From NCBI GenBank assembly GCA_963733535.1, contig CAVTDR010000006.1:1505348-1569347 (forward strand): DNA of 64,000 nucleotides, written 5' to 3'. Positions 20,655 through 29,916 of this stretch are shown here, piece by piece. The number at the start of each line of letters is the position of its first letter. The first letter of the stretch is position 1. This DNA comes from an uncultured Bacteroidota bacterium. Its GTDB lineage: Bacteria > Bacteroidota > Bacteroidia > Bacteroidales > UBA10428. The position numbers and the translations under genes were made by a program. The notes beneath the pieces were generated by a model, which was not told the DNA's origin, made no database searches, and was given only the letters and a program-made list of their open reading frames with translations.

Positions 20655-21719
20655 TTGAAAGAAAAAGTAATTAGCGGGATTCAGCAGATTGGTATCGGCG
20701 TGCCCAATGTACATGAGGCCTGGAAATGGTACAAACAAAATTTTGGAGTGGATATCCGGATGTTTGAGGATAATGCGGTGGCCGAACATATGCTTCCCTA
20801 TACAGGAGGTAAGCCTCAAAAGCGACATGCTGCTCTGGCGCTAAATTTGCAGGGTGGGGGAGGATTTGAAATCTGGCAATACGTGGAACGTACGCCATTA
20901 TCTGCGAAGTTTGAAATTCAACTGGGTGATCTGGGCATATTTGCTGCTAAAATAAAATGCCGCAATGCAAAGATTACCTATGACTTTTTAAAAAGCCAGG
21001 GTGTAAACATGCTTACCGGGATACTGAGAGATCCGAGGGGCAAAGAGCATTTCTATATAAAAGATCCTTATGGGAATATCTTCCAACTGGTAACCAGTGT
21101 AACCTGGTTTATTAATGAAAAAAAACCTACCGGAGCTGCTTATGGTGCAGTAATTGGGGTTTCTGACATCAATAAAGCGGCTGAATTTTATGCCAGCATA
21201 TTGGGATATGACCAGCGGATTTTTGATGAGACCGCCGTTTTTGGTGAATATGCCGGTTTATCTGGTGGGAATAACCGTTTTCGGAGAGTATTGCTAAGGC
21301 ACAGCAAACCACGTTTGGGTGCATTTAGTCCCCTTTTCGGAACCAGCGAAATTGAACTGGTTCAAGTGCTTGATCGGACGCCTCAGAAAATTTACCATGA
21401 GCGGTTCTGGGGTGATTTGGGTTTCATTCACTTGTGTTTTGATATCAATGGAATGGATTTATTGCGTGAAGAATGTAAACAAAAAGGTTGCCCCTTTACC
21501 GTAGATGTTGATCACAGCTTCGATATGGGTGAGGCCGCAGGATCTTTTGCATATACGGAAGATCCGGATGGTACGTTAATAGAATTTGTGGAAACGCACA
21601 AGATTCCAATACTTAAAAGTATCGGATGGTATCTGAATCTGAGAAAGAGAAAACCTGAAAAAGCGTTACCGCATTGGCTGCTTAAAGCCATATCATTTAA
21701 CAGGGCTAAAGATATATAA
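20655..21719 (+). CDS. VOC (glyoxalase/bleomycin-resistance/dioxygenase) family protein, duplicated domains
   Basis: The apparent start is TTG, with the first in-frame ATG 35 codons further in. Two VOC-like halves are visible: ISGIQQIGIGVPNVHEAWKWY... and AYGAVIGVSDINKAAEFYASILGY... Confidence 0.7.
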   Translation: MKEKVISGIQQIGIGVPNVHEAWKWYKQNFGVDIRMFEDNAVAEHMLPYTGGKPQKRHAALALNLQGGGGFEIWQYVERTPLSAKFEIQLGDLGIFAAKIKCRNAKITYDFLKSQGVNMLTGILRDPRGKEHFYIKDPYGNIFQLVTSVTWFINEKKPTGAAYGAVIGVSDINKAAEFYASILGYDQRIFDETAVFGEYAGLSGGNNRFRRVLLRHSKPRLGAFSPLFGTSEIELVQVLDRTPQKIYHERFWGDLGFIHLCFDINGMDLLREECKQKGCPFTVDVDHSFDMGEAAGSFAYTEDPDGTLIEFVETHKIPILKSIGWYLNLRKRKPEKALPHWLLKAISFNRAKDI

Positions 21720-21798
21720 GCCCCGGGAGACAATGGAAAACGGATAAACTAAATAAGAAAAGAAGGTTTGTCTTCCCGGGACTGTTTCAGAGCGGTTA

Positions 21799-24700
21799 TT
21801 ATTTTGGAATTGTATTATATCTGCCCGTTGCATGCATATATGCTCTTATTTTTATGCGATAACGGGCTTTGGCTTCTGTAAGTGTATCTTTTGCCTGATA
21901 AAGAAGTGTCTGAGCTTCGAGCATATCCGAGATATTGATCATGCCTGACTGAAAATTATCACGGTTGATTTTCAGATTTTCTTGTGCCTGGCCCACTGTT
22001 TCAAGAGCAACATCAATTTCCATCCAGGCTTCATTCAGTTCATTCCATTCTTTTTCGATTTTCAGTACCAGCAATTCAGTATTATTTTTGCAGTTGTTGC
22101 TGACGATTTCCTCTTTGAGTTTTCGTTCTTTGATTGAATGTAACCCTTCCCACCAGTCAGATATTGGTATTGATACCGTGCCAAAGACCATACTGTTGGT
22201 TGTTCCTTTATCTGCGATATTATAATAGAGGGCTCCAACTCCAATTCCTGCTTCAGGCATGTATTCTCCGGTTTTAATACGTGTTCGTAATTTTTCAGCC
22301 TGGACACTCGTTTGCAACAACTTGTATTCTTCCAGATTATCAATGGCATTTGAGGCAGCAATATAGAAATCTCCAGGCTGTTTTTCAATCATCAGTGAAT
22401 CGGTGCATACCATGGTACTGTCATACGGAATTCCCATAAATTGACAAAAAGCCATGGAAGACAAGCGGATGCCATTTTCAAGTTTCAATTGATTACTTTT
22501 TATCTCACTCTTTTTCAAGGTAACCCTGAGAACTTCGTTCCGGTTAATAAGTCCTGCTTTCCATGCATCGAAAGCTTCATTATATATGCTGTCCAATAAT
22601 TGCATGGATACTGCCATCGTTTGCCGCTTTTCATAAAGTGACACGATCCTCCAGTATTGCTCTTCAGTATTGAGAACGATCTGATTTTCCGAAAGAATGC
22701 GTTGACTTTCGCTTGCATTTACACCAAGCCCTGCAAGTTTATTTCCGCTCATGATTCTTCCTCCGGCAAAAACAGGTTGCACCGCGGTGATCGAGCCTAG
22801 ATTTCCCTTATCAATCATGGATAAAGAAAACCCTGGGAAATAGGCAAATTGTGTTGGATGAAGAAGATTAACCGGATTGCCGTCATATACCGGCAGATTT
22901 CCACCTGGAATATCCAGCTTTACAAGAGGTTCATTAAAGCGATATATAATTCCGGTAGCAGTGATTGAAGGAAAGTACTTTGTAAATGCAGCTTTTTTTA
23001 TTTGACTTGCAGCCTGAACGTCCAACGTGGCGTTCCTCACCTGAATGTTATTGGATAGAGCCAATGATTGGCAGTGTTCCAATGTATAAGCCGGCTGTGC
23101 ATAAATGCCTTCAATGGCACACCCTAAGAATACCATAACGACAATAGTTCGTAAAAGTAAAGCCGATTTTTGAAGACCCGTTCCTTTGATTTTTGAATCA
23201 GCACGTCTGCAAATCATCCAATAGGCAACAGGCAGAATGAGTACCAGTAGAATCATCGAAGACAATGTACCAAAGCAGATTACGGCGCCCATTGGACTCC
23301 ATAGCGGATTTGCATTGACAATCATGGGAATAACACCTACCGATGCAGCTGCAGAAGTCAGGAAAATGGGTCGCATTCTTCTTTTTCCAGCTTCCATTGC
23401 AGCCTCTTTTACACTCAGGTTGTGCTTTTTGCGAATTTCTTCAGCATAATCCAGCATGATAATGCCATTTCTAACGAGGATACCTATCAGACTGACAATA
23501 CCTAAAATGGCTGTAATTCCAAATTCAGCTTTTAATATGATAATTCCCAGAAAGGCACCTAAAAGACTCAGAGATGATGCACTTAGAACAAGAAGGGCGA
23601 GTGCTATTTTTCTGAAATGAAGCAGAAGAATTATGAAAACAATAAATATGGCAATGATCAAGCCTGCAATAATATTTGGAACGTTTTCCTCATCCAATTC
23701 ATAGGATCCTCCATAGGAAATAAGAATATCCGATGGTATCTGCATGTTGTGGACCTTTGCTTCAACTGCGGAAAATACTTCCTGTACCTTATACCCGCGT
23801 TCAATATCAGCCATAAGGGTAAGCGTATGCATTCCGTTCCTCCGGACAATCTGATCTTGTGTCCAATCTGCCGATACAGTGGCTATTTGACGCAAAGGCA
23901 CAGATATACCCGGAATAAGTGAATGAATATATTCATCATAGATATTCTGGTCGTTTTCTTCAGATTCGGTTTTCAACACAACACTTAGCGGATAATCATT
24001 TTCCCACATGGTAGTAACCGGCAAGCCCTCATAACGGATGGCCAGATTTGTGGCCACTGATGTTTTATTGATTCCTAACCGGCTGGCTTCAGTAGCATTC
24101 AAATTTATTCTGAGAGATGGCTGCATTTCACCAAAGTCACTCCTTACCCAATCAATTCCTTTTATATGCTGTAATTGAGGAAGCAAAGAATCACTGATGA
24201 TCTTGAGCGATTTCAATGAATCACATGAAATTCTGACCTCAATAGGAGCAGCTATCGGCTGGTAATCAAGTTCTTTAAATCGTATATGGGCATTCGGAAA
24301 ATAGTCACCATAGATTTTTGAATAATCATCCAGCAAATCAACCGTTGCTGATTCCGAAATGGTATTTACAATAAACTGGGCATAATTTTTAGACGGGACT
24401 TTGGGGGCATAGGTAGTATGGAAACGGGGTGAGCTTGTTCCCACAAAAGAAGTAATGGATGTGATGCGCGGATCTTCTGATAACATGTGTTGCAGACTAT
24501 CTGAAACCAGCGCTGTGCTTTTAAGTGAACTGCCCTGGGGTAGATAAATTTCAATGGCAAATTGATTGCGTTCAGCTACAGGCAATAACCGCTGCGGAAC
24601 TTTAAAAAACAAGGCAATAGCACATAAAACAGAAAATAGTCCGATGCCGATCGTAAACCGTGGATAGGCAAATGCTTTAAGCAAATACTTTTCATAAAGA

Positions 24701-26253
24701 TTCTGAATGGAATTTAATACGTTAAAATGGTTTTTAATTTTCTTTTCAGCATTCAAGTACCCTTTTTTGATAAAATAATATTGCATAAAGGGAATAACCA
24801 TCATGGCAACGAGCAATGAAATTCCAAGTGTAAGCGTTACCGTCCATGGAAACATTTCCACAAAATCTTTAAATGTACCTTTCAGTGTGAAAAGAAAGGG
24901 TAGAAATGTGATGCTGATTGCCAGGGTAGCGGAAAATATGGCTTTAAAGTATATTCTGGCACTGGATATGGCAGCATACCAACGGGAAACACCCTGATCC
25001 AGCTTTTCCATATAACTATCTACGATGACTATGGAGTTATCAACGATCATTCCGAGCACTACAATCAAAGCCGCCAATGTCACAGTATTCAGTTCAATAC
25101 CGATAACATACATCAGTCCGAGAGAAATAAATATCGTAACCGGAATAGAAGAAGCAGCCACTGATGCTACACGTAGTGGTAGAAGCAACATGGTAACAAC
25201 AATTACAGAAAGAATGGCAAAGAAAAGTTCAAGCATAAAACCTGATACCGCATTTTTAACAACAAAAGGCTGATCGGCAATCCGCTTTATGGTAATGCCT
25301 TCAGGAAGCGACTTTTTAAAATCATTAAGTACTTCATTAACTTCTTCCCCGAATTGTACAATGTTATTGCCTTCCAACATTTCCATTGATATGAGCAGGC
25401 ATTTATGGGCATTGTTTTGTATGTAACTATCGGGGTCGGGATATTCTCTGATCACCGTGGCAATATCTTTCACACGCACCATGTTCCCCAAAGGGTCGGA
25501 ATAAATAATTTGTTCTGCCAGATCATCCTGGGTCTTATAGGGCGTGGTGATAATAACCGGAGATTCAATAGCGCCATAATCTACAGAAGCTCCGGCAGTT
25601 GTAAGCCCTTGTGCAAACAGGCCCGCCGTAATGATGGTGCTATTGAGACTATATTTCTCTAATTTTGCCTTGTCCAGGCAGATACTAATTTGCTCATGTT
25701 GCAGGCCAAAATGTCTGACTTTCGAAACCGATTCAATCCTCCTTAACCGGTCTTCAAGGCGGTATAAATAGGTTTCAAGATCGCGGTATGACATGTGATC
25801 CGCCTCCAATGAAATAAGCAATGCTGAAGTGTCTCCAAAATCATTGTCGGCATATAAAGCCAGGACTCCGGCAGGCAATTTGGACTTAAAGGTAATCAGA
25901 CCATGTTTTAACTTCGACCAAAATTCATCAGCATTCTTTACCTTATCATTCAATTCTACAAAAATGATCATCAAACCATTTTTGGAATAGGAGTAGGTTT
26001 TCTTTTTATTGATTTCTTTAAAGCTGAATAAATAGCGTTCGACTTCAGTGGTCAGTTGTTCATCGATCTGGTTTGAAGTTGCCCCGGGATATGCCGCTAT
26101 AACAAGTCCCTGTCGAATAGTAACGGTAGGGAACTCCTGACGCGGCATTTTCTTAAGCGCAAAGAAACCGAGGATAACCAGAAACACAACACTTAAAAAG
26201 ACAATCTGCCTGTTTTTCATAGCAGATTCTACAAAGGAAATTTTTTTACTCAT
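21799..26253 (-). CDS. RND efflux permease fused in-frame to a TolC-like outer-membrane factor (1484 aa)
   Basis: The frame is a single uninterrupted ORF. Residues 1 to about 1012 form a full AcrB-type architecture ending with TM12 (...GTLSSMILLVLILPVAYWMI). Residues 1013-1052 are signal-peptide-like. Residues 1053-1484 form a full TolC/OEP protein (QPAYTLEHCQSLALSNNIQVRNA...). The 5' end overlaps the MFP gene by 4 nt. Confidence 0.85.
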   Translation of the reverse strand: MSKKISFVESAMKNRQIVFLSVVFLVILGFFALKKMPRQEFPTVTIRQGLVIAAYPGATSNQIDEQLTTEVERYLFSFKEINKKKTYSYSKNGLMIIFVELNDKVKNADEFWSKLKHGLITFKSKLPAGVLALYADNDFGDTSALLISLEADHMSYRDLETYLYRLEDRLRRIESVSKVRHFGLQHEQISICLDKAKLEKYSLNSTIITAGLFAQGLTTAGASVDYGAIESPVIITTPYKTQDDLAEQIIYSDPLGNMVRVKDIATVIREYPDPDSYIQNNAHKCLLISMEMLEGNNIVQFGEEVNEVLNDFKKSLPEGITIKRIADQPFVVKNAVSGFMLELFFAILSVIVVTMLLLPLRVASVAASSIPVTIFISLGLMYVIGIELNTVTLAALIVVLGMIVDNSIVIVDSYMEKLDQGVSRWYAAISSARIYFKAIFSATLAISITFLPFLFTLKGTFKDFVEMFPWTVTLTLGISLLVAMMVIPFMQYYFIKKGYLNAEKKIKNHFNVLNSIQNLYEKYLLKAFAYPRFTIGIGLFSVLCAIALFFKVPQRLLPVAERNQFAIEIYLPQGSSLKSTALVSDSLQHMLSEDPRITSITSFVGTSSPRFHTTYAPKVPSKNYAQFIVNTISESATVDLLDDYSKIYGDYFPNAHIRFKELDYQPIAAPIEVRISCDSLKSLKIISDSLLPQLQHIKGIDWVRSDFGEMQPSLRINLNATEASRLGINKTSVATNLAIRYEGLPVTTMWENDYPLSVVLKTESEENDQNIYDEYIHSLIPGISVPLRQIATVSADWTQDQIVRRNGMHTLTLMADIERGYKVQEVFSAVEAKVHNMQIPSDILISYGGSYELDEENVPNIIAGLIIAIFIVFIILLLHFRKIALALLVLSASSLSLLGAFLGIIILKAEFGITAILGIVSLIGILVRNGIIMLDYAEEIRKKHNLSVKEAAMEAGKRRMRPIFLTSAAASVGVIPMIVNANPLWSPMGAVICFGTLSSMILLVLILPVAYWMICRRADSKIKGTGLQKSALLLRTIVVMVFLGCAIEGIYAQPAYTLEHCQSLALSNNIQVRNATLDVQAASQIKKAAFTKYFPSITATGIIYRFNEPLVKLDIPGGNLPVYDGNPVNLLHPTQFAYFPGFSLSMIDKGNLGSITAVQPVFAGGRIMSGNKLAGLGVNASESQRILSENQIVLNTEEQYWRIVSLYEKRQTMAVSMQLLDSIYNEAFDAWKAGLINRNEVLRVTLKKSEIKSNQLKLENGIRLSSMAFCQFMGIPYDSTMVCTDSLMIEKQPGDFYIAASNAIDNLEEYKLLQTSVQAEKLRTRIKTGEYMPEAGIGVGALYYNIADKGTTNSMVFGTVSIPISDWWEGLHSIKERKLKEEIVSNNCKNNTELLVLKIEKEWNELNEAWMEIDVALETVGQAQENLKINRDNFQSGMINISDMLEAQTLLYQAKDTLTEAKARYRIKIRAYMHATGRYNTIPK

Positions 26254-27299
26254 AAGGATCTTGAAAATGAAACAGGGCTGTTTTCGCTTAATTTATGATA
26301 GCCTTCAATAATCACATGATCGCCGATTTGAAGTCCTTCGGTAATTTCAATATCTCCATGAGATGATACAGAACCGATAATTACATTTCTTCTTATCGCT
26401 TTATTTAGTATGGTGTCTGCTATAAATACATACTTTTTCCCATCATTACCGGACAATACCGATTGTTGCGGAACACGAATTACAGTATTTTTATCAATTT
26501 GATCTATCGCCACATAGCAAACCATGCCCGGACGCATGGAAAAATCCGAATTACGAACTGCAATTTTAACTTCATAGGTATGGGAGAATGGATTCGCTAT
26601 AACACCTTTGTATTCAACTGTACCGGTATATATGGCATTATTCAGTGCTCCGACTTTCAGGGTTACTTTCTGGCCGGTTTTCAAACTGTTGATTTCGTTT
26701 TCAGGCACGGGTATTTTTACGAATACCTTGTCAATATTTACCAGTGTGATTATTGTTATCCCCGGTGCAATATTAGCACCGGGTTCAATCATCCGTTTAC
26801 CCACAATAGCACTTACCGGTGACACCAGATTGCAATCGCTGAGGTTTTTTTGGGCAAGCAAAGCCATGGCATGCGCCTGTTGCAAAGCAGTTTCGATCTC
26901 TACCATTTTTATCTCGGGCAAACTACCGTTTTTATAAACTTCTGAAAGACGGTTGTATGCATCCTGAGCCTGTCTTTCTTTCGCTGATGCTATTTCCAAA
27001 GCGTTTTTGTAGCTATAGTTGTCAAGACGGGCAAGAATCTGACCTTTTTGCACAGTCTGCCCTTCGTCTATAAATACTTTTTCGACGGTTCCGGAAGTAA
27101 GAAAACTCATGGGTATCGATTGGGATTCTTCGACAGTTCCAATATATCTTTCAGAAATATTGTCTGTTGAAGCGGATACCGCAAGAGTTCTTACCGGAGT
27201 AGCTGTTTGAACCGGCCCGACAACTTCATTATTTTTTGCACAACCGCTAACAATTATGAACAAAAATGCAGGTCCGAGTAAATGATGCAAAACATTCAT
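26250..27299 (-). CDS. Efflux RND transporter periplasmic adaptor (MFP/HlyD family) lipoprotein
   Basis: It has the lipobox FIIVSGC. Biotinyl-lipoyl-like and beta-barrel segments (GTVEKVFIDEGQTVQKGQILARLD) are typical of MFPs. Confidence 0.85.
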   Translation of the reverse strand: MNVLHHLLGPAFLFIIVSGCAKNNEVVGPVQTATPVRTLAVSASTDNISERYIGTVEESQSIPMSFLTSGTVEKVFIDEGQTVQKGQILARLDNYSYKNALEIASAKERQAQDAYNRLSEVYKNGSLPEIKMVEIETALQQAHAMALLAQKNLSDCNLVSPVSAIVGKRMIEPGANIAPGITIITLVNIDKVFVKIPVPENEINSLKTGQKVTLKVGALNNAIYTGTVEYKGVIANPFSHTYEVKIAVRNSDFSMRPGMVCYVAIDQIDKNTVIRVPQQSVLSGNDGKKYVFIADTILNKAIRRNVIIGSVSSHGDIEITEGLQIGDHVIIEGYHKLSENSPVSFSRSL

Positions 27300-27322
27300 A
27301 TGAGAAACATTTATAATGAAAA

Positions 27323-27949
27323 CTAGAAGAACAGGGTTACGCCAAAAAGAGCTGATTTATTACGGTCGTCAGAGGCTGATGACATTACCCTGGCAAATCC
27401 TTGTGAATACCTGAAACCGATCTGCATCACATGATTCCCTGCAGGCACCTGGATTCCGCCGCCAATGGTGTATCCACCATCTGTTGAATGGATATCATTA
27501 TTAAAATTCTCGCTATCCGTATGTTCTCCTGTAGCAGCTACTGCATTTTCAGCGTATGTTTTAAATCCGGCATAAAATCCTGCCAGACCATACAGTCTTG
27601 TATTTCCGCTTGCAGGTATAGACGCTTCGGCCAATAGAGGAATGGTAATATAATTGTACATGCCGGTGATTTTTTGCTCACCATTGCTTACATCCTGTTT
27701 TTTACGAAACCCTTTTTGTTCGTATATTATTCCGGATTGCAATCCCCAGGAAGGATTAATGGTATATCGAAAGGCGATGCCTCCACCAAAACCGGTTTTC
27801 AGCGCTTCATTATCATAAAAATTTCCGGGTTCGGATAAGGTGGATACAGTGAGTCCCGAAATTACCCCTGCCTCGATTCTTTTCTGACCATAAAACGGAA
27901 GTGTATTTATAATGGTCAAGATAAAAACAATCATCATTTTACTTTTCAT
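27323..27949 (-). CDS. Small outer-membrane beta-barrel (porin-family/OmpA-barrel-like) protein
   Basis: The tracked ORF is 27323..28030. The likely start is MKSKMMIVFILTIINTLPFYGQ at 27949. It has an alternating beta-strand pattern and ends ...FGVTLFF. Confidence 0.6.
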   Translation of the reverse strand: MKSKMMIVFILTIINTLPFYGQKRIEAGVISGLTVSTLSEPGNFYDNEALKTGFGGGIAFRYTINPSWGLQSGIIYEQKGFRKKQDVSNGEQKITGMYNYITIPLLAEASIPASGNTRLYGLAGFYAGFKTYAENAVAATGEHTDSENFNNDIHSTDGGYTIGGGIQVPAGNHVMQIGFRYSQGFARVMSSASDDRNKSALFGVTLFF

Positions 27950-28036
27950 CACACTGTTTATTAAATTGTTATTAAAACTATCTTTATGAATAATTCGACC
28001 AAAAACGTAGAATGGTCGAAATATGTACAAAAAATT

Positions 28037-28621
28037 TTATTTCTTCATAATGCCGTAAAAAAGAACATTTAACAGGCTTTCCAATTGATTTTCAGCATAT
28101 TTTCTTTTGCTTGACCAGAACATGGGGACTTCTATTCCTTTCAGGGCAGTAAAAATGGCAATAGCAGCAAGTTCTGTATCCTCAATACGAAAATCGCCCA
28201 ATGCAACACCTTCATCCAGAATATCCTGGAGCATGTGAATTTCTTTCAGATCGTATTTGTTCCTGATTTTCTCAATAAAATCAAAGTGACTATAGGCTTC
28301 CGACTGGATTACAGAATAGAAATTGGAAACCTTTCTGAAGGTTTTCATGCGGGTTAGCACATAGGCTTTCAATTTATCAGCAGAATTATTAAGCCGGGAC
28401 AACGCCTTAATTACCTCCTGACGTAAAAATTCAGCTTCAAATTCTAGTACAGCCTGATAAATTTCTTCTTTGCTTTTGAAATAATAATAGATAGAACTTT
28501 TCCCTTTGCCGAGCGATTGGGCAATTTCGTCCATGGTAGCCTTTTTATAGCCAAACTTATCGAAAATGCTTCGGGAAGCTTCGATAATCTGATCTCTTAT
28601 ATCGTTTTTATCAACGGACAT
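28037..28621 (-). CDS. TetR/AcrR family transcriptional regulator
   Basis: The N-terminal HTH is IIEASRSIFDKFGYKKATMDEIAQSLGKGKSSIYYYFKSKEEI. It is the first gene of the efflux operon. Confidence 0.85.
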   Translation of the reverse strand: MSVDKNDIRDQIIEASRSIFDKFGYKKATMDEIAQSLGKGKSSIYYYFKSKEEIYQAVLEFEAEFLRQEVIKALSRLNNSADKLKAYVLTRMKTFRKVSNFYSVIQSEAYSHFDFIEKIRNKYDLKEIHMLQDILDEGVALGDFRIEDTELAAIAIFTALKGIEVPMFWSSKRKYAENQLESLLNVLFYGIMKK

Positions 28622-28638
28622 TTATCTATTCGACTAAA

Positions 28639-28661
28639 ATACTTTAACGGTCCAAAAGTAT
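28639..28661 (-). promoter_or_regulatory. Candidate promoter -7 box overlapped by an inverted repeat (possible TetR operator)
   Basis: On the minus strand, TACTTTTG (plus 28653-28660) fits TAnnTTTG and lies 32 nt upstream of the TetR ATG. The inverted repeat ATACTTT-N9-AAAGTAT (28639-28661) spans it. Confidence 0.4.
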
Positions 28662-28743
28662 AAACAATTTTTCACTCAACAAAGTATTTCATAAAATATT
28701 TTTCGTATGATCGAATTAATTGTTCGAAAAGTACACTGACTGC

Positions 28744-28799
28744 TGATTGGTGATTGGTATTCGGTATTCGGTATTCGGTATTCGATATTCGGTGTTTGG
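28744..28799. repeat. Tandem heptanucleotide array, 8 units (TGATTGG x2, TATTCGG x3, TATTCGA, TATTCGG, TGTTTGG)
   Basis: I read the units directly. They start at 28744, 28751, 28758, 28765, 28772, 28779, 28786 and 28793. Confidence 0.95.
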
Positions 28800-28820
28800 T
28801 TCCTTTTTGACATTTACCAT

Positions 28821-28903
28821 ACCGTTTACTGATTACCGTTTACTGATTACCGTTTACTGATTACCGTTTACTGATTACCGTTTACTGATTACTGATTACT
28901 GAT
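28821..28903. repeat. Tandem 14-mer array (ACCGTTTACTGATT x5) followed by two extra ACTGAT(T) half-units
   Basis: I read five perfect 14-nt copies at 28821-28890, then ACTGATT (28891-28897) and ACTGAT (28898-28903). The array starts 23 nt downstream of the GT9 gene stop on the minus strand. Confidence 0.95.
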
Positions 28904-28926
28904 GGCTGCCTGCTGCTCGCCGACCG

Positions 28927-29916
28927 CTATGGCTCCATCAATCCTGATTTCTTCAGTATATCATCAATGCTGATTTCGGAACATTTAAAATGGTGCAATG
29001 GACATTCTCTTTTACCATGCAATCCACATGGCCTGCATTCTAATTTCTCCGAAGTTTCCAGAATGATACCGGAATCTGATAACGGGCCAAAACCAAATTC
29101 CCGCACAGTGGAACAGAATATAACGCCAACCGGAGCATTTGCGGCAGAAGCAAAATGTGCAGGAGCTGAGTCGTTGGTAAATGTAAATTTTGCATGTTTA
29201 ATTAAGGCAACGGATTGCAAAAAGCTGAGTTTTCCGGCCGATACAATTACACCTTCCCTATTGGTCCTTGCCTGAATTGACTCACACAAGGGCACATCTT
29301 CCGGTCCTCCGATCAGATGAATTTTGTAGGAACCGGGAATCCTGGAAATCAGAGCACACCAATTTTCAACGGGCCACATTTTGGTAAACCAGGTAGATGC
29401 CGGAGCCATGCAAATATATTCATAACCTGCAGGCACCGTTTCTTCATCTTTATCGGAAGGATACAACCGGGGCCTTACAAAAGTTGAATCGGTGATATGT
29501 TCTATCAGCCGGATATTTCTTTCCACTTCATGTACCAGATGATCTTTGGAGATCACATGCTTTACCTTCCGGGTATAAAACATCGAAAGGGGGTTTTTAT
29601 CGAATCCGATCTTTACTTTTCCTTTGGAAAAACAGGTGATCAGACCGGTAGTAATAAAGCGGTGTACATTAATTACATAATCATAAGATTGCGCACGGAT
29701 ATTTCGAATCAGAGGAATCAGATTCCTGATTTTTCTTTTTTTATCAAAGATCAAAACCGTATGAACATGGGGGTGTCCATCGAACAGGGATTGATTGCCT
29801 TTACGAACCAGCACGTCAATACGGCATTCCGGATAGCGGATTTTCAGTTTCTCAATAAGGGGAGTAACTAAAACCACATCCCCCACAAAAGCGGTTTGTA
29901 TAATAAGTATTTTCAT
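28927..29916 (-). CDS. Glycosyltransferase family 9 (heptosyltransferase-like) protein
   Basis: The tracked ORF is 28927..30033. The likely start is MKILIIQTAFVGDVVLVTPLIEKLK at 29916. The GT9 N-terminal motif and the C-terminal ...NDSAPAHFASA block support the call. Confidence 0.8.
   Translation of the reverse strand: MKILIIQTAFVGDVVLVTPLIEKLKIRYPECRIDVLVRKGNQSLFDGHPHVHTVLIFDKKRKIRNLIPLIRNIRAQSYDYVINVHRFITTGLITCFSKGKVKIGFDKNPLSMFYTRKVKHVISKDHLVHEVERNIRLIEHITDSTFVRPRLYPSDKDEETVPAGYEYICMAPASTWFTKMWPVENWCALISRIPGSYKIHLIGGPEDVPLCESIQARTNREGVIVSAGKLSFLQSVALIKHAKFTFTNDSAPAHFASAANAPVGVIFCSTVREFGFGPLSDSGIILETSEKLECRPCGLHGKRECPLHHFKCSEISIDDILKKSGLMEP

What the first reader, a model, noticed from the sequence alone, without database searches (positions are those of the whole stretch)
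21799..26253. One uninterrupted 1484-codon ORF joins a complete RND inner-membrane pump to a complete TolC-like outer-membrane factor
Residues 1 to about 1012 have the full length and layout of an AcrB-type RND permease, ending with a normal TM12 (...AVICFGTLSSMILLVLILPVAYWMI). Residues from about 1053 to 1484 are a full-length TolC/OEP-type outer-membrane factor, whose mature-looking N-terminus is QPAYTLEHCQSLALSNNIQVRNA. These two components normally sit in different membranes and are encoded by separate genes. Here no stop codon separates them. The MFP adaptor gene overlaps the 5' end by 4 nt, so all three tripartite components are present but two are covalently linked at the gene level. 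I do not know of a characterised RND::OMF fusion. Targeting and assembly of the trimeric OMF barrel would need a non-standard route.
Basis: partly seen in the sequence, partly recalled or inferred. Interest (0 to 1): 0.75.

Follow-up and report, generated by a model that had tools for sequence, protein, structure and literature searches.

The report
RND pump–TolC channel polyprotein gene
One real, conserved gene encodes both the inner-membrane pump and the outer-membrane channel of a drug-efflux system, and the channel's own export signal sits between them, so the product is most likely cut into two ordinary proteins after it enters the membrane.

Summary
A 1484-codon ORF on the minus strand (21799-26253) carries a full-length AcrB-type RND permease (residues 9-1014) and a complete TolC-type outer-membrane factor (residues 1053-1484). 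It overlaps the adaptor (MFP) gene by 4 nt.

It is not an assembly artefact. With the RND part alone as query, the 97 best protein clusters (95% down to 59% identity) all carry both domains. Unfused relatives appear only at 58% identity or less.

It is the channel's retained Sec signal peptide:
- a positively charged stretch (net +5);
- a 12-residue hydrophobic core;
- I-Y-A|Q at the cleavage position.

Across 119 fused homologues, +1 is Gln in 116 and -1 is Ala in 104. This matches the signal peptidase I "Q-rule" of Bacteroidetes. In unfused relatives a stop codon and a 3-129 nt gap occupy the same position, followed by "MKK…A|Q".

The window gene has no usable internal start codon. The most likely mechanism is therefore a polyprotein. 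The linker acts as a 13th membrane helix and exports the channel part. Signal peptidase I then releases it for normal outer-membrane assembly.

The fusion arose several times independently. I found no paper describing it. Cleavage is inferred, not shown.

The parts
21799..26253 (-). Fused RND::OMF ORF, 1484 codons plus a stop codon at 21799-21801.
   Evidence: conserved as one ORF in 97 of the 97 best RND-only hits
23212..26253 (-). RND permease part, residues 1-1014. It has 12 TM helices and two periplasmic domains, and TM12 is helix 986-1019 in the model.
   Evidence: Pfam ACR_tran 9-1014. The nearest solved structures are MexK and 6vej. AF2 model: pLDDT 79.7.
23149..23211 (-). Cytoplasmic, positively charged part of the linker, residues 1015-1035 (CRRADSKIKGTGLQKSALLLR; 6 K/R, 1 D). 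It corresponds to the RND tail plus the n-region of a signal peptide.
   Evidence: Sequence. The mean net charge of this segment in 119 homologues is +4.3. AF2 pLDDT is below 50 for residues 1021-1033.
23113..23148 (-). Hydrophobic core, residues 1036-1047 (TIVVMVFLGCAI). It would act as the signal-peptide h-region and as a 13th TM helix.
   Evidence: Predicted helix at 1030-1048 and 1030-1051, with low confidence in both models.
23095..23112 (-). c-region E1048-A1052 and the predicted signal peptidase I site I-Y-A|Q, between codon A1052 (23098-23100) and codon Q1053 (23095-23097).
   Evidence: In 119 homologues, +1 is Q in 116, -1 is A in 104, and -3 is L/A/V/T/S/I. The pattern is the same in stand-alone OMF signal peptides. 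The Q-rule is described in PMC5837995.
21802..23097 (-). Mature TolC-type outer-membrane factor, residues 1053-1484.
   Evidence: Two Pfam OEP stretches. AF2 pLDDT 83.5. Foldseek matches TolC 1ek9 and 7ng8, VceC, OprM and CusC over about 440 aligned columns, TM 0.7-0.79.
26250..27299 (-). Periplasmic adaptor (MFP) gene. It overlaps the fused ORF by 4 nt.
   Evidence: TIGR01730 at 194 bits; HlyD_D23
27323..28030 (-). Small outer-membrane beta-barrel gene (OMP_b-brl_2) inside the operon. It is specific to this lineage.
   Evidence: It is present in the 81%-identical relative L081. In 9 other fused loci checked, the gene at that position is TetR.
28037..28621 (-). TetR-family regulator at the head of the operon.
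   Evidence: A TetR gene stands upstream of the MFP gene in 9 of 9 fused loci checked.

Best explanation
This is a genuine, evolutionarily fixed gene fusion that encodes a polyprotein precursor of two components of an otherwise ordinary tripartite RND efflux pump (operon TetR - [small OMP] - MFP - RND::OMF).

Origin: the ancestral arrangement is RND stop codon, a gap of a few nucleotides, then the OMF start. That arrangement lost its stop. The RND tail, the spacer and the OMF's Sec signal peptide became a 38-residue in-frame linker.

Proposed mechanism:
1. The RND part is inserted co-translationally, and TM12 ends in the cytoplasm.
2. The K/R-rich part of the linker stays inside the cell.
3. 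The 12-residue hydrophobic core (T1036-I1047) spans the membrane N-in/C-out as a 13th helix and starts Sec translocation of the 432-residue OMF part. The two large periplasmic loops of the RND part are translocated in the same way.
4. Signal peptidase I cuts after I-Y-A1052.
5. The new N-terminal Q1053 is cyclised to pyroglutamate, as in most Bacteroidetes signal peptidase I substrates.
6. The free OMF reaches the outer membrane by the standard chaperone and BAM route and trimerises.
7. The RND keeps TM13 as a C-terminal tail, and the pump assembles with the MFP as usual.

The likely benefit is obligatory 1:1 synthesis and co-translational export of the OMF without a second translation start.

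What is shown: the fusion is real, it is conserved, both domains are complete, the linker corresponds to a signal peptide, and no usable internal start exists.

What is inferred: membrane topology, cleavage, pyroglutamate formation and the benefit.
For: - Both domains are complete.
- With the RND part alone as query, which is unbiased for fusion state, all 97 best clusters (95% to 59% identity) carry both domains (95 are full-length, 1452-1501 aa; P0098 and P0030 are cut short). Split RNDs of 1030-1035 aa appear only at 58% identity or less.
- Linker features in 119 fused homologues: 35-48 aa long, preceding segment net +4.3, last uncharged run about 16 aa, -1 Ala in 104, +1 Gln in 116.
- Stand-alone and split relatives begin 'MKK..hydrophobic..A|Q' and continue with the same mature motif Y(S/T)LEQC..LAL.NN. 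The site motif is as strong in fused genes as in these N-terminal signal peptides.
- Independent fused lineages (P0131, P0154, P0176, P0210, P0248, P0260, and L033, L052, L056, L063, L073) all keep the same linker layout.
- The window linker has no ATG, GTG or TTG 16-35 codons upstream of the site. The only one is M1040 at -13, with no n-region. L009, L022 and L025 have no such codon at all.
- The Q-rule applies to Bacteroidetes signal peptidase I substrates (PMC5837995, PMC10653852), so a conserved +1 Gln only makes sense if a new N-terminus is created there.
- AF2 gives TM13 low confidence with or without the RND part, and its sequence is poorly conserved. This fits a generic signal sequence better than a structural helix.
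- Established knowledge (review PMC8277102): both termini of AcrB-type RNDs are cytoplasmic. The N-terminus of a TolC protomer lies far up the periplasmic tunnel. The few residues between TM13 and the first OMF helix could not span that distance, so an uncut fusion could not form the canonical pump.
Against: - No experimental data exist: no N-terminal sequence, no Western blot, no proteomics for any carrier.
- No dedicated signal-peptide predictor was available. My own weight matrix does place the best site of the whole protein at 1052|1053, but only narrowly (6.2 against 5.8 for the runner-up).
- Signal peptidase I cleavage behind a 12-TM protein is plausible, but I know it only from a few natural and engineered cases, recalled from memory.
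- 43 of 119 homologues keep a Met near the old OMF start, so internal initiation may contribute in some lineages.
- The proposed benefit is speculation.
Confidence: 0.75

Rival explanations
1. The protein stays uncut. It would be a 13-TM inner-membrane protein with the TolC-like domain tethered to it, working in some non-canonical way.
For: The ORF is continuous and conserved. Nothing experimental shows cleavage.
Against: The -3/-1/+1 signal peptidase I motif, including the Bacteroidetes-specific +1 Gln, is kept at stand-alone signal-peptide levels across deep divergence and across independent fusions. That would be unexplained without cleavage. The hydrophobic core has signal-peptide length (12 residues in the window). 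The OMF part keeps a complete TolC fold including the beta-barrel strands, and only about 5 residues separate TM13 from its first helix. A tethered OMF therefore could not reach the outer membrane (geometry from established structures, PMC8277102).
Confidence: 0.08
2. The ORF is continuous, but the OMF is made separately from an internal translation start. The fusion would then be a neutral read-through of little consequence.
For: 26 of 119 homologues keep M-K-(P/S/T/A) exactly where the ancestral OMF start was, and 43 of 119 have a Met 16-30 residues upstream of the site. Bacteroidetes do not depend on Shine-Dalgarno sequences, so internal starts are hard to exclude.
Against: The window gene has no ATG, GTG or TTG that would yield a signal peptide with an n-region; the only one is M1040, 13 residues before the site. 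Several other fused genes have no start-like codon in the linker at all. A neutral read-through would not stay in frame in every orthologue from 95% to 59% identity through a variable-length, poorly conserved linker. No promoter-like signal lies at the junction, although the scan does not cover Bacteroidetes promoter types.
Confidence: 0.07
3. Assembly or sequencing artefact, or a recent pseudogene-like loss of a stop codon in this genome only.
For: None found. The junction is a single short stretch, so one erroneous base could in principle have removed a stop.
Against: The identical protein is on record from an NCBI 2-Mb contig and from a separate Logan assembly. Homologues at 93%, 81%, 75% ... 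46% identity from more than 120 clusters share the architecture. 41 complete fused ORFs occur in other species' genomes. The 81% relative has the same synteny.
Confidence: 0.01
4. The precursor is cut by signal peptidase II at the Cys in the linker (F-L-G-C1045), giving a lipidated NodT/OprM-type OMF.
For: The window linker contains ...VFLGC..., which loosely resembles a lipobox.
Against: This Cys occurs only in the window, in P0001 and in a few others; it is absent from most of the 119 homologues. The invariant feature is A|Q, 8 residues further on. The conserved mature domain starts at Q1053, as in stand-alone relatives. F at -3 and L at -2 do not fit the canonical lipobox.
Confidence: 0.02

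Closest known systems
Canonical three-gene RND efflux operons with the order MFP-RND-OMF. Examples are the split relatives in Bacteroides ihuae (L012), Phocaeicola plebeius (L054), Prevotella, Xylanibacter rarus (L075) and Lutibacter, and the BmeABC-type systems of Bacteroides.
   Same: Same three components in the same gene order. The RND is 56-58% identical to the window's, the OMF has the same mature N-terminus, and a TetR regulator is present.
   Different: In these operons a stop codon and a 3-129 nt gap separate RND and OMF, and the OMF starts with its own Met. Here that stretch is read through in frame.
MexK (MexJK) and the 6vej RND transporter of Pseudomonas aeruginosa, the nearest solved RND structures.
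   Same: Full-length alignment (E 2e-102 and 4e-101). MexK has Arg where AcrB has K940 in TM10, as the window protein does.
   Different: About 30% identity. MexK has D-D in TM4, whereas this family has D405-N406. MexK has no C-terminal extension.
TolC (1EK9) and other solved OMFs (VceC, OprM, CmeC, CusC).
   Same: The whole protomer fold matches, over about 440 aligned columns with TM 0.7-0.79. There are two OEP repeats. Like TolC, it has no conserved lipobox Cys.
   Different: 11-16% sequence identity. The precursor's signal peptide is internal, preceded by a 1014-residue membrane protein. There is an insertion of several short strands between the first two barrel strands.
Bacterial membrane polyproteins cut at an internal signal sequence, for example Bradyrhizobium FbcH (the cytochrome b/c1 precursor). 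Recalled from my own knowledge; the paper is not in the held library.
   Same: Two subunits of one envelope complex are encoded in one ORF. A polytopic membrane part is followed by an internal signal peptide that exports the second part, which is then cut off.
   Different: In FbcH both products stay at the inner membrane. Here the second product must go on to the outer membrane. Cleavage is shown for FbcH and only inferred here.
Bacteroidetes signal peptidase I substrates that obey the Q-rule (PMC5837995, PMC10653852).
   Same: Charged n-region, short h-region, small residues at -1 and -3, and Gln at +1.
   Different: The signal is not N-terminal. After cleavage the 'signal peptide' would stay attached to the RND instead of being released.

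Membership tests
RND permease, AcrB/AcrD/AcrF type (Pfam PF00873) | Full-length match to the family profile above the curated cutoff. | tested here: met
   489 bits against a cutoff of 28; profile positions 3-1020 of 1021.
RND permease, AcrB/AcrD/AcrF type (Pfam PF00873) | 12 TM helices with two large periplasmic domains, after TM1 and after TM7. | tested here: met
   The AF2 secondary structure shows this layout, pLDDT 79.7. Full-length alignment to MexK.
RND permease, AcrB/AcrD/AcrF type (Pfam PF00873) | TM4 Asp-Asp pair (AcrB D407/D408) and a basic residue in TM10 (AcrB K940) for proton relay. | tested here: inconclusive
   TM4 reads V-D405-N406-S, and D-N is nearly invariant in the family. 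MexK has D-D. TM10 has Arg, as MexK does. One Asp is kept and the second is not.
Curated NCBIfam RND subfamilies (RND_permease_1 and _2, CusA/CzcA, MdtB, MdtC, AcrB ...) | Score above the curated cutoff of the subfamily model. | tested here: not met
   The best is RND_permease_2 at 409.7 bits against a cutoff of 1250. All other models also fall below their cutoffs. The protein belongs to the superfamily but to none of the named subfamilies.
Outer-membrane factor, TolC/OEP family (Pfam PF02321) | Two OEP repeats above the cutoff. | tested here: met
   151 bits against a cutoff of 22, in 2 stretches.
Outer-membrane factor, TolC/OEP family (Pfam PF02321) | Complete TolC protomer fold: 4 barrel strands, long coiled helices and an equatorial domain. 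| tested here: met
   AF2 pLDDT 83.5. Foldseek matches 1ek9, 7ng8, 5bun, OprM and CusC with probability 1.00, about 440 columns, TM 0.7-0.79.
Outer-membrane factor, TolC/OEP family (Pfam PF02321) | Trimer forming a 12-stranded barrel in the outer membrane. | not testable with these tools
   Only monomer models are returned, without coordinates.
NodT/OprM-type lipoprotein OMFs | Conserved lipobox Cys that becomes the mature N-terminus. | tested here: not met
   C1045 is not conserved, and the conserved site is A|Q. TIGR01845 scores 26.7 bits against a cutoff of 210.
Sec / signal peptidase I signal peptide (Bacteroidetes Q-rule type) | Positive n-region, hydrophobic core of about 10-15 residues, small residues at -3 and -1, and Gln at +1. 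| tested here: met
   Window: net +5; TIVVMVFLGCAI (12 residues); I-Y-A|Q. Family statistics are equal to those of stand-alone OMF signal peptides.
Sec / signal peptidase I signal peptide (Bacteroidetes Q-rule type) | N-terminal position in the precursor. | tested here: not met
   It starts at about residue 1015, behind 12 TM helices.
Sec / signal peptidase I signal peptide (Bacteroidetes Q-rule type) | Actual cleavage and a pyroglutamate N-terminus. | not testable with these tools
   Needs N-terminal proteomics or Western blots.
Tripartite RND efflux system | Adjacent periplasmic adaptor (MFP) gene in the same operon. | tested here: met
   TIGR01730 at 194 bits against a cutoff of 94.9, with a 4-nt overlap. 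The same arrangement occurs in L081.

The most novel reading that the evidence does not exclude
The polyprotein may be more than a convenient way of co-expressing two genes. It may be an assembly device. Three precursors would come together through trimerisation of their RND parts. That would hold three OMF protomers side by side at the inner membrane and hand them on as a pre-organised set, so the RND trimer would act as a scaffold for OMF trimer biogenesis. After cleavage, the retained TM13 might play an AcrZ-like accessory role on the pump. A weaker variant is that cleavage is regulated, so that pump assembly is controlled by proteolysis.
Probability: 0.12. Interest if true: 0.85.

Novelty: new variant of a known kind. 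Interest (0 to 1): 0.62.

Why it matters
Tripartite efflux pumps are textbook examples of three separately made proteins that meet across two membranes. A natural RND::OMF polyprotein, fixed in a whole clade of Bacteroidota and invented several times, would show three things:
- an outer-membrane channel can be delivered through the co-translational insertion route of an inner-membrane protein;
- signal peptidase I can serve as a polyprotein-processing enzyme in bacteria;
- strict 1:1 synthesis of pump and channel is selectable.

It also offers a ready-made natural system for studying how OMF trimers are made and how pump stoichiometry is set. In practical terms, genome annotation currently labels these genes only as 'efflux RND transporter permease subunit'. 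The OMF is therefore overlooked when efflux systems of Bacteroidota are counted.

Tried and rejected
- **Literature.** Six full-text searches found no description of a natural RND::OMF fusion (readings 15, 16, 42). Terms included RND, OMF, fused, Bacteroidetes, bmeB/bmeC, 'RND-OMF', 'TolC fusion', 'single polypeptide' and 'gene fusion'. The large tripartite-pump review PMC8277102 does not mention one, although only the first 300,000 characters of it are held. Absence from this library does not prove absence from the literature.
- **FbcH precedent.** The paper was not found in the library. It is cited from memory only.
- **Promoter and terminator scan of 21500-29000.** Counts were at shuffle level and nothing lay at the junction. 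The scan does not cover Bacteroidetes promoter types, so it is uninformative.
- **Home-made cleavage-site weight matrix.** The best site in the whole protein is 1052|1053, but the margin is small (6.2 against 5.8). This is weak support only.
- **AF2 model of residues 1-1052, to see whether TM13 packs on the RND.** TM13 has pLDDT 35-54, so there is no evidence of specific packing. No coordinates are returned, so contacts could not be checked.
- **Reading frame in split loci.** In all 35 split loci the OMF start is in the same frame as the RND (gaps are multiples of 3). I rejected this as evidence of read-through selection. The loci were chosen by a single tblastn segment spanning the junction, which favours in-frame arrangements. 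For the same reason the ratio of 41 fused to 33 split loci is not a prevalence. One search was run as the unbiased test.
- **Lipoprotein (signal peptidase II) processing at C1045.** Rejected because the Cys is not conserved.

Full report
**1. Observation**

It lies on the minus strand, 21799..26253, and is 1484 codons long.
- Pfam ACR_tran covers residues 9-1014, which is essentially the whole 1021-position profile (E 3e-146).
- Pfam OEP matches in two stretches up to residue 1477 (E 3e-44).
- The upstream ORF 26250..27299 (-) is a periplasmic adaptor (TIGR01730, 194 bits against a cutoff of 94.9) and overlaps the fused ORF by 4 nt.
- Further upstream lie a small outer-membrane beta-barrel gene (27323..28030) and a TetR regulator (28037..28621).
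- The junction DNA (23095-23211) has no stop codon.
- The window has 39.6% G+C. It carries ordinary Bacteroidota chromosomal genes such as SusC/SusD, DsbD and RNase E/G.

**2. Not an artefact, and conserved**

- A search with the whole protein returned at least 120 clusters (at the 90% identity level). Of these, 118 are 1452-1505 aa long and two are cut short. All but the truncated P0098 (1152 aa) carry both Pfam domains, and identity ranges from 93% down to 46%.
- Named sources include Paludibacter jiangxiensis, Maribellus maritimus, Mangrovibacterium, Draconibacterium and Prolixibacteraceae. JGI names them 'multidrug efflux pump subunit AcrB/outer membrane protein TolC'.
- That ranking favours fused proteins, so I repeated the search with the RND part alone (residues 1-1014).
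  - The 97 best clusters (95% to 59% identity) all carry both domains; only P0098 and P0030 are shorter because they are cut off.
  - Separate RND proteins of 1030-1035 aa, from Bacteroides and Parabacteroides, first appear at 58% identity or less.
- The fusion is therefore fixed in the whole orthologous clade.
- The identical 1484-aa protein is on record from a 2-Mb NCBI contig and from a separate Logan assembly.
- A relative at 81% identity (L081, GCA_964615995.1) has the same gene neighbourhood.

**3. Both halves are complete**

- The RND part aligns end to end with MexK and with 6vej (E about 1e-102).
- An AF2 model of residues 1-1052 (pLDDT 79.7) shows 12 TM helices and two periplasmic domains.
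- An AF2 model of residues 1015-1484 (pLDDT 83.5) matches TolC, ST50, VceC, OprM, CmeC and CusC over about 440 columns, with TM-scores of 0.7-0.79 and probability 1.00.
- By sequence alone the OMF part barely reaches TolC (E 4e-4), so the fold comparison was needed.

**4. The linker is the key**

The linker is residues 1015-1052: CRRADSKIKGTGLQKSALLLR-TIVVMVFLGCAI-EGIYA, followed by Q1053. It has the three parts of a Sec signal peptide:
- a positively charged stretch (6 K/R and 1 D);
- a 12-residue hydrophobic core;
- a short c-region with I at -3 and A at -1.

In an alignment of 119 fused homologues the linker varies in sequence and in length (35-48 aa). Four features are nevertheless kept:
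- net charge +4.3 before the hydrophobic run;
- a last uncharged run of about 16 residues;
- Ala at -1 in 104 (Ser 7, Gly 4);
- Gln at +1 in 116 of 119.

Gln at +1 is the mark of signal peptidase I substrates in Bacteroidetes. There the new N-terminus is cyclised to pyroglutamate (PMC5837995, PMC10653852).

**5. Comparison with unfused relatives**

- I ran an exhaustive search of 1.84 billion representatives with the OMF part. After one fused representative, the nearest hits are stand-alone OMFs of 427-463 aa (47-38% identity).
- Their alignment to Q1053 onwards begins at their residue 22-33, directly after their own N-terminal signal peptide 'MKK…A|Q'.
- In 33 genomes with split genes, the RND ends 11-42 residues after the TM12 Tyr with a charged tail.
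  - A gap of 3-129 nt follows.
  - The OMF then starts 'MKK..hydrophobic..A|Q' and continues with Y(S/T)LEQC..LAL.NN, the same motif that follows the linker in the fused genes.
- The fused linker is therefore the RND tail, the spacer and the OMF signal peptide, read through in frame.
- Remnants of the old start are visible: M-K-(P/S/T/A) in 26 of 119 homologues, and I/V/L-K-P in 43.
- The site motif is as strong in fused linkers as in these N-terminal signal peptides. That comparison used a site-finder that favours A|Q, applied equally to both sets. The figures are alignment-based.

**6. Recurrence**

- A neighbour-joining tree of the RND domain from 74 sequences (73 genome loci plus the window) places fused genes in at least six clades, interleaved with split ones. 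These are:
  - the window clade;
  - a large second clade of 23 loci;
  - a Rikenellaceae group;
  - L033;
  - L052;
  - L063 with L073.
- A tree of the OMF domain shows P0001-P0120 as one fused clade. Six other fused representatives each sit among stand-alone OMFs.
- All of these keep the layout TM12, charged stretch, hydrophobic run, small residue at -1, then Q/E.
- These are distance trees without support values, so the number of events is approximate.
- The common operon is TetR-MFP-RND::OMF.

**7. Mechanism**

- Both termini of AcrB-type RNDs are cytoplasmic (established knowledge). A following segment with a positive N-side and a hydrophobic core will therefore insert N-in/C-out. That places the A-x-A|Q site at the periplasmic face, where signal peptidase I acts.
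- The 432-residue OMF part would be translocated like the RND's own periplasmic loops.
- Cleavage would free a normal OMF precursor-less form for the usual route to the outer membrane. TM13 would remain attached to the RND.
- Internal initiation cannot supply the OMF in this gene. Between TM12 and the site, the only start-like codon in the useful range is M1040 at -13, which would give a 13-residue peptide with no charged n-region.
- Several other fused genes (L009, L022, L025) have no ATG, GTG or TTG in the linker at all.
- An uncut, tethered OMF could not take part in a canonical pump. Only about 5 residues separate TM13 from the first OMF helix, whereas the N-terminus of a TolC protomer sits far up the periplasmic tunnel (structures reviewed in PMC8277102). 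This step is an inference.
- TM13 is poorly conserved and gets low AF2 confidence with or without the RND part. That fits a generic signal sequence.
- I put the probability that the precursor is cut at A1052|Q1053 at about 0.75.

**8. Caveats**

- Cleavage, topology and benefit are inferred. No experimental data exist.
- The 80 genome loci were selected by one tblastn segment across the junction. This favours arrangements in which RND and OMF are in frame.
  - It explains why all 35 split loci have gaps that are multiples of 3.
  - It also means the ratio of 41 fused to 33 split loci is not a prevalence.
- My weight matrix for cleavage sites puts the best site of the protein at 1052|1053, but only narrowly.

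**9. Comparison with what is known, and novelty**

- The system is an ordinary tripartite RND pump in content and order. The new feature is the polyprotein encoding of the inner-membrane and outer-membrane components with an internal signal peptide.
- The nearest functional analogy I know is the Bradyrhizobium FbcH cytochrome b/c1 precursor. This is recalled from memory and is not in the held library.
- Six literature searches and the main review of the field gave no description of a natural RND::OMF fusion.
- Databases hold hundreds of such genes, mostly named only 'efflux RND transporter permease subunit'.
- I rate it a new variant of a known kind, of moderate to high interest.

Noticed in passing
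window 27323-28030 (-): A 235-aa outer-membrane beta-barrel gene (Pfam OMP_b-brl_2, E 1e-20) sits inside the efflux operon between the TetR and MFP genes. The 81%-identical relative L081 has it too. In 9 more distant fused loci the gene at that position is TetR, with no beta-barrel gene there. Its role in the pump is unknown.
   Followed up: partly
window 25036-25041 (-), residues D405-N406: The TM4 proton-relay pair is Asp-Asn (GMIVDNSIV) instead of the Asp-Asp of AcrB and MexK. D-N is nearly invariant across the fused family. This may mean a different proton stoichiometry or coupling.
   Followed up: partly
L020, L021, L022, L023, L025, L031, L037, L038, L039, L062 and others; cytoplasmic part of the linker: The second large fused clade has a conserved motif in the cytoplasmic linker, roughly S-D-K-x-K-K-P-G-F-W-S-V-P. 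The window clade lacks it. A conserved motif in what should be a mere spacer is unexplained.
   Followed up: no
L012-L080, split loci: In all 35 split loci the first ATG of the OMF is in the same reading frame as the RND stop codon. The gaps are 3, 9, 12, 15 ... 129 nt, all multiples of 3. This is most likely an ascertainment effect of the tblastn selection. It was not tested on an unbiased set, and real selection (for example stop-codon read-through) is not excluded.
   Followed up: partly
L063 (MAG labelled Candidatus Delongbacteria), L073 (Gemmatimonas), L047 (Syntrophothermus): Fused RND::OMF genes with A|Q sites occur in genomes labelled as non-Bacteroidota. This could be horizontal transfer, mis-binning, or independent fusions outside the phylum.
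   Followed up: no
L057 8001-9636: A Prolixibacteraceae locus where the ORF that reads through the junction breaks inside the OMF part. The ORF is 1227 aa, and the OMF continues in another frame. It is either a pseudogene or an assembly error.
   Followed up: no
window 22816-22923 (-), residues about 1111-1146: The OMF model has several extra short strands and a short helix (model residues 97-132, motif ...PGGNLPVYDG...) between the first barrel strand and the next long one, with pLDDT about 70. This looks like an insertion relative to TolC, and its location is unknown.
   Followed up: no
P0122 (785 aa, JGI contig of 4.4 kb): JGI names it 'outer membrane protein TolC/preprotein translocase subunit SecF'. 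It is a fused RND::OMF gene cut off by the contig end, not a different architecture.
   Followed up: yes
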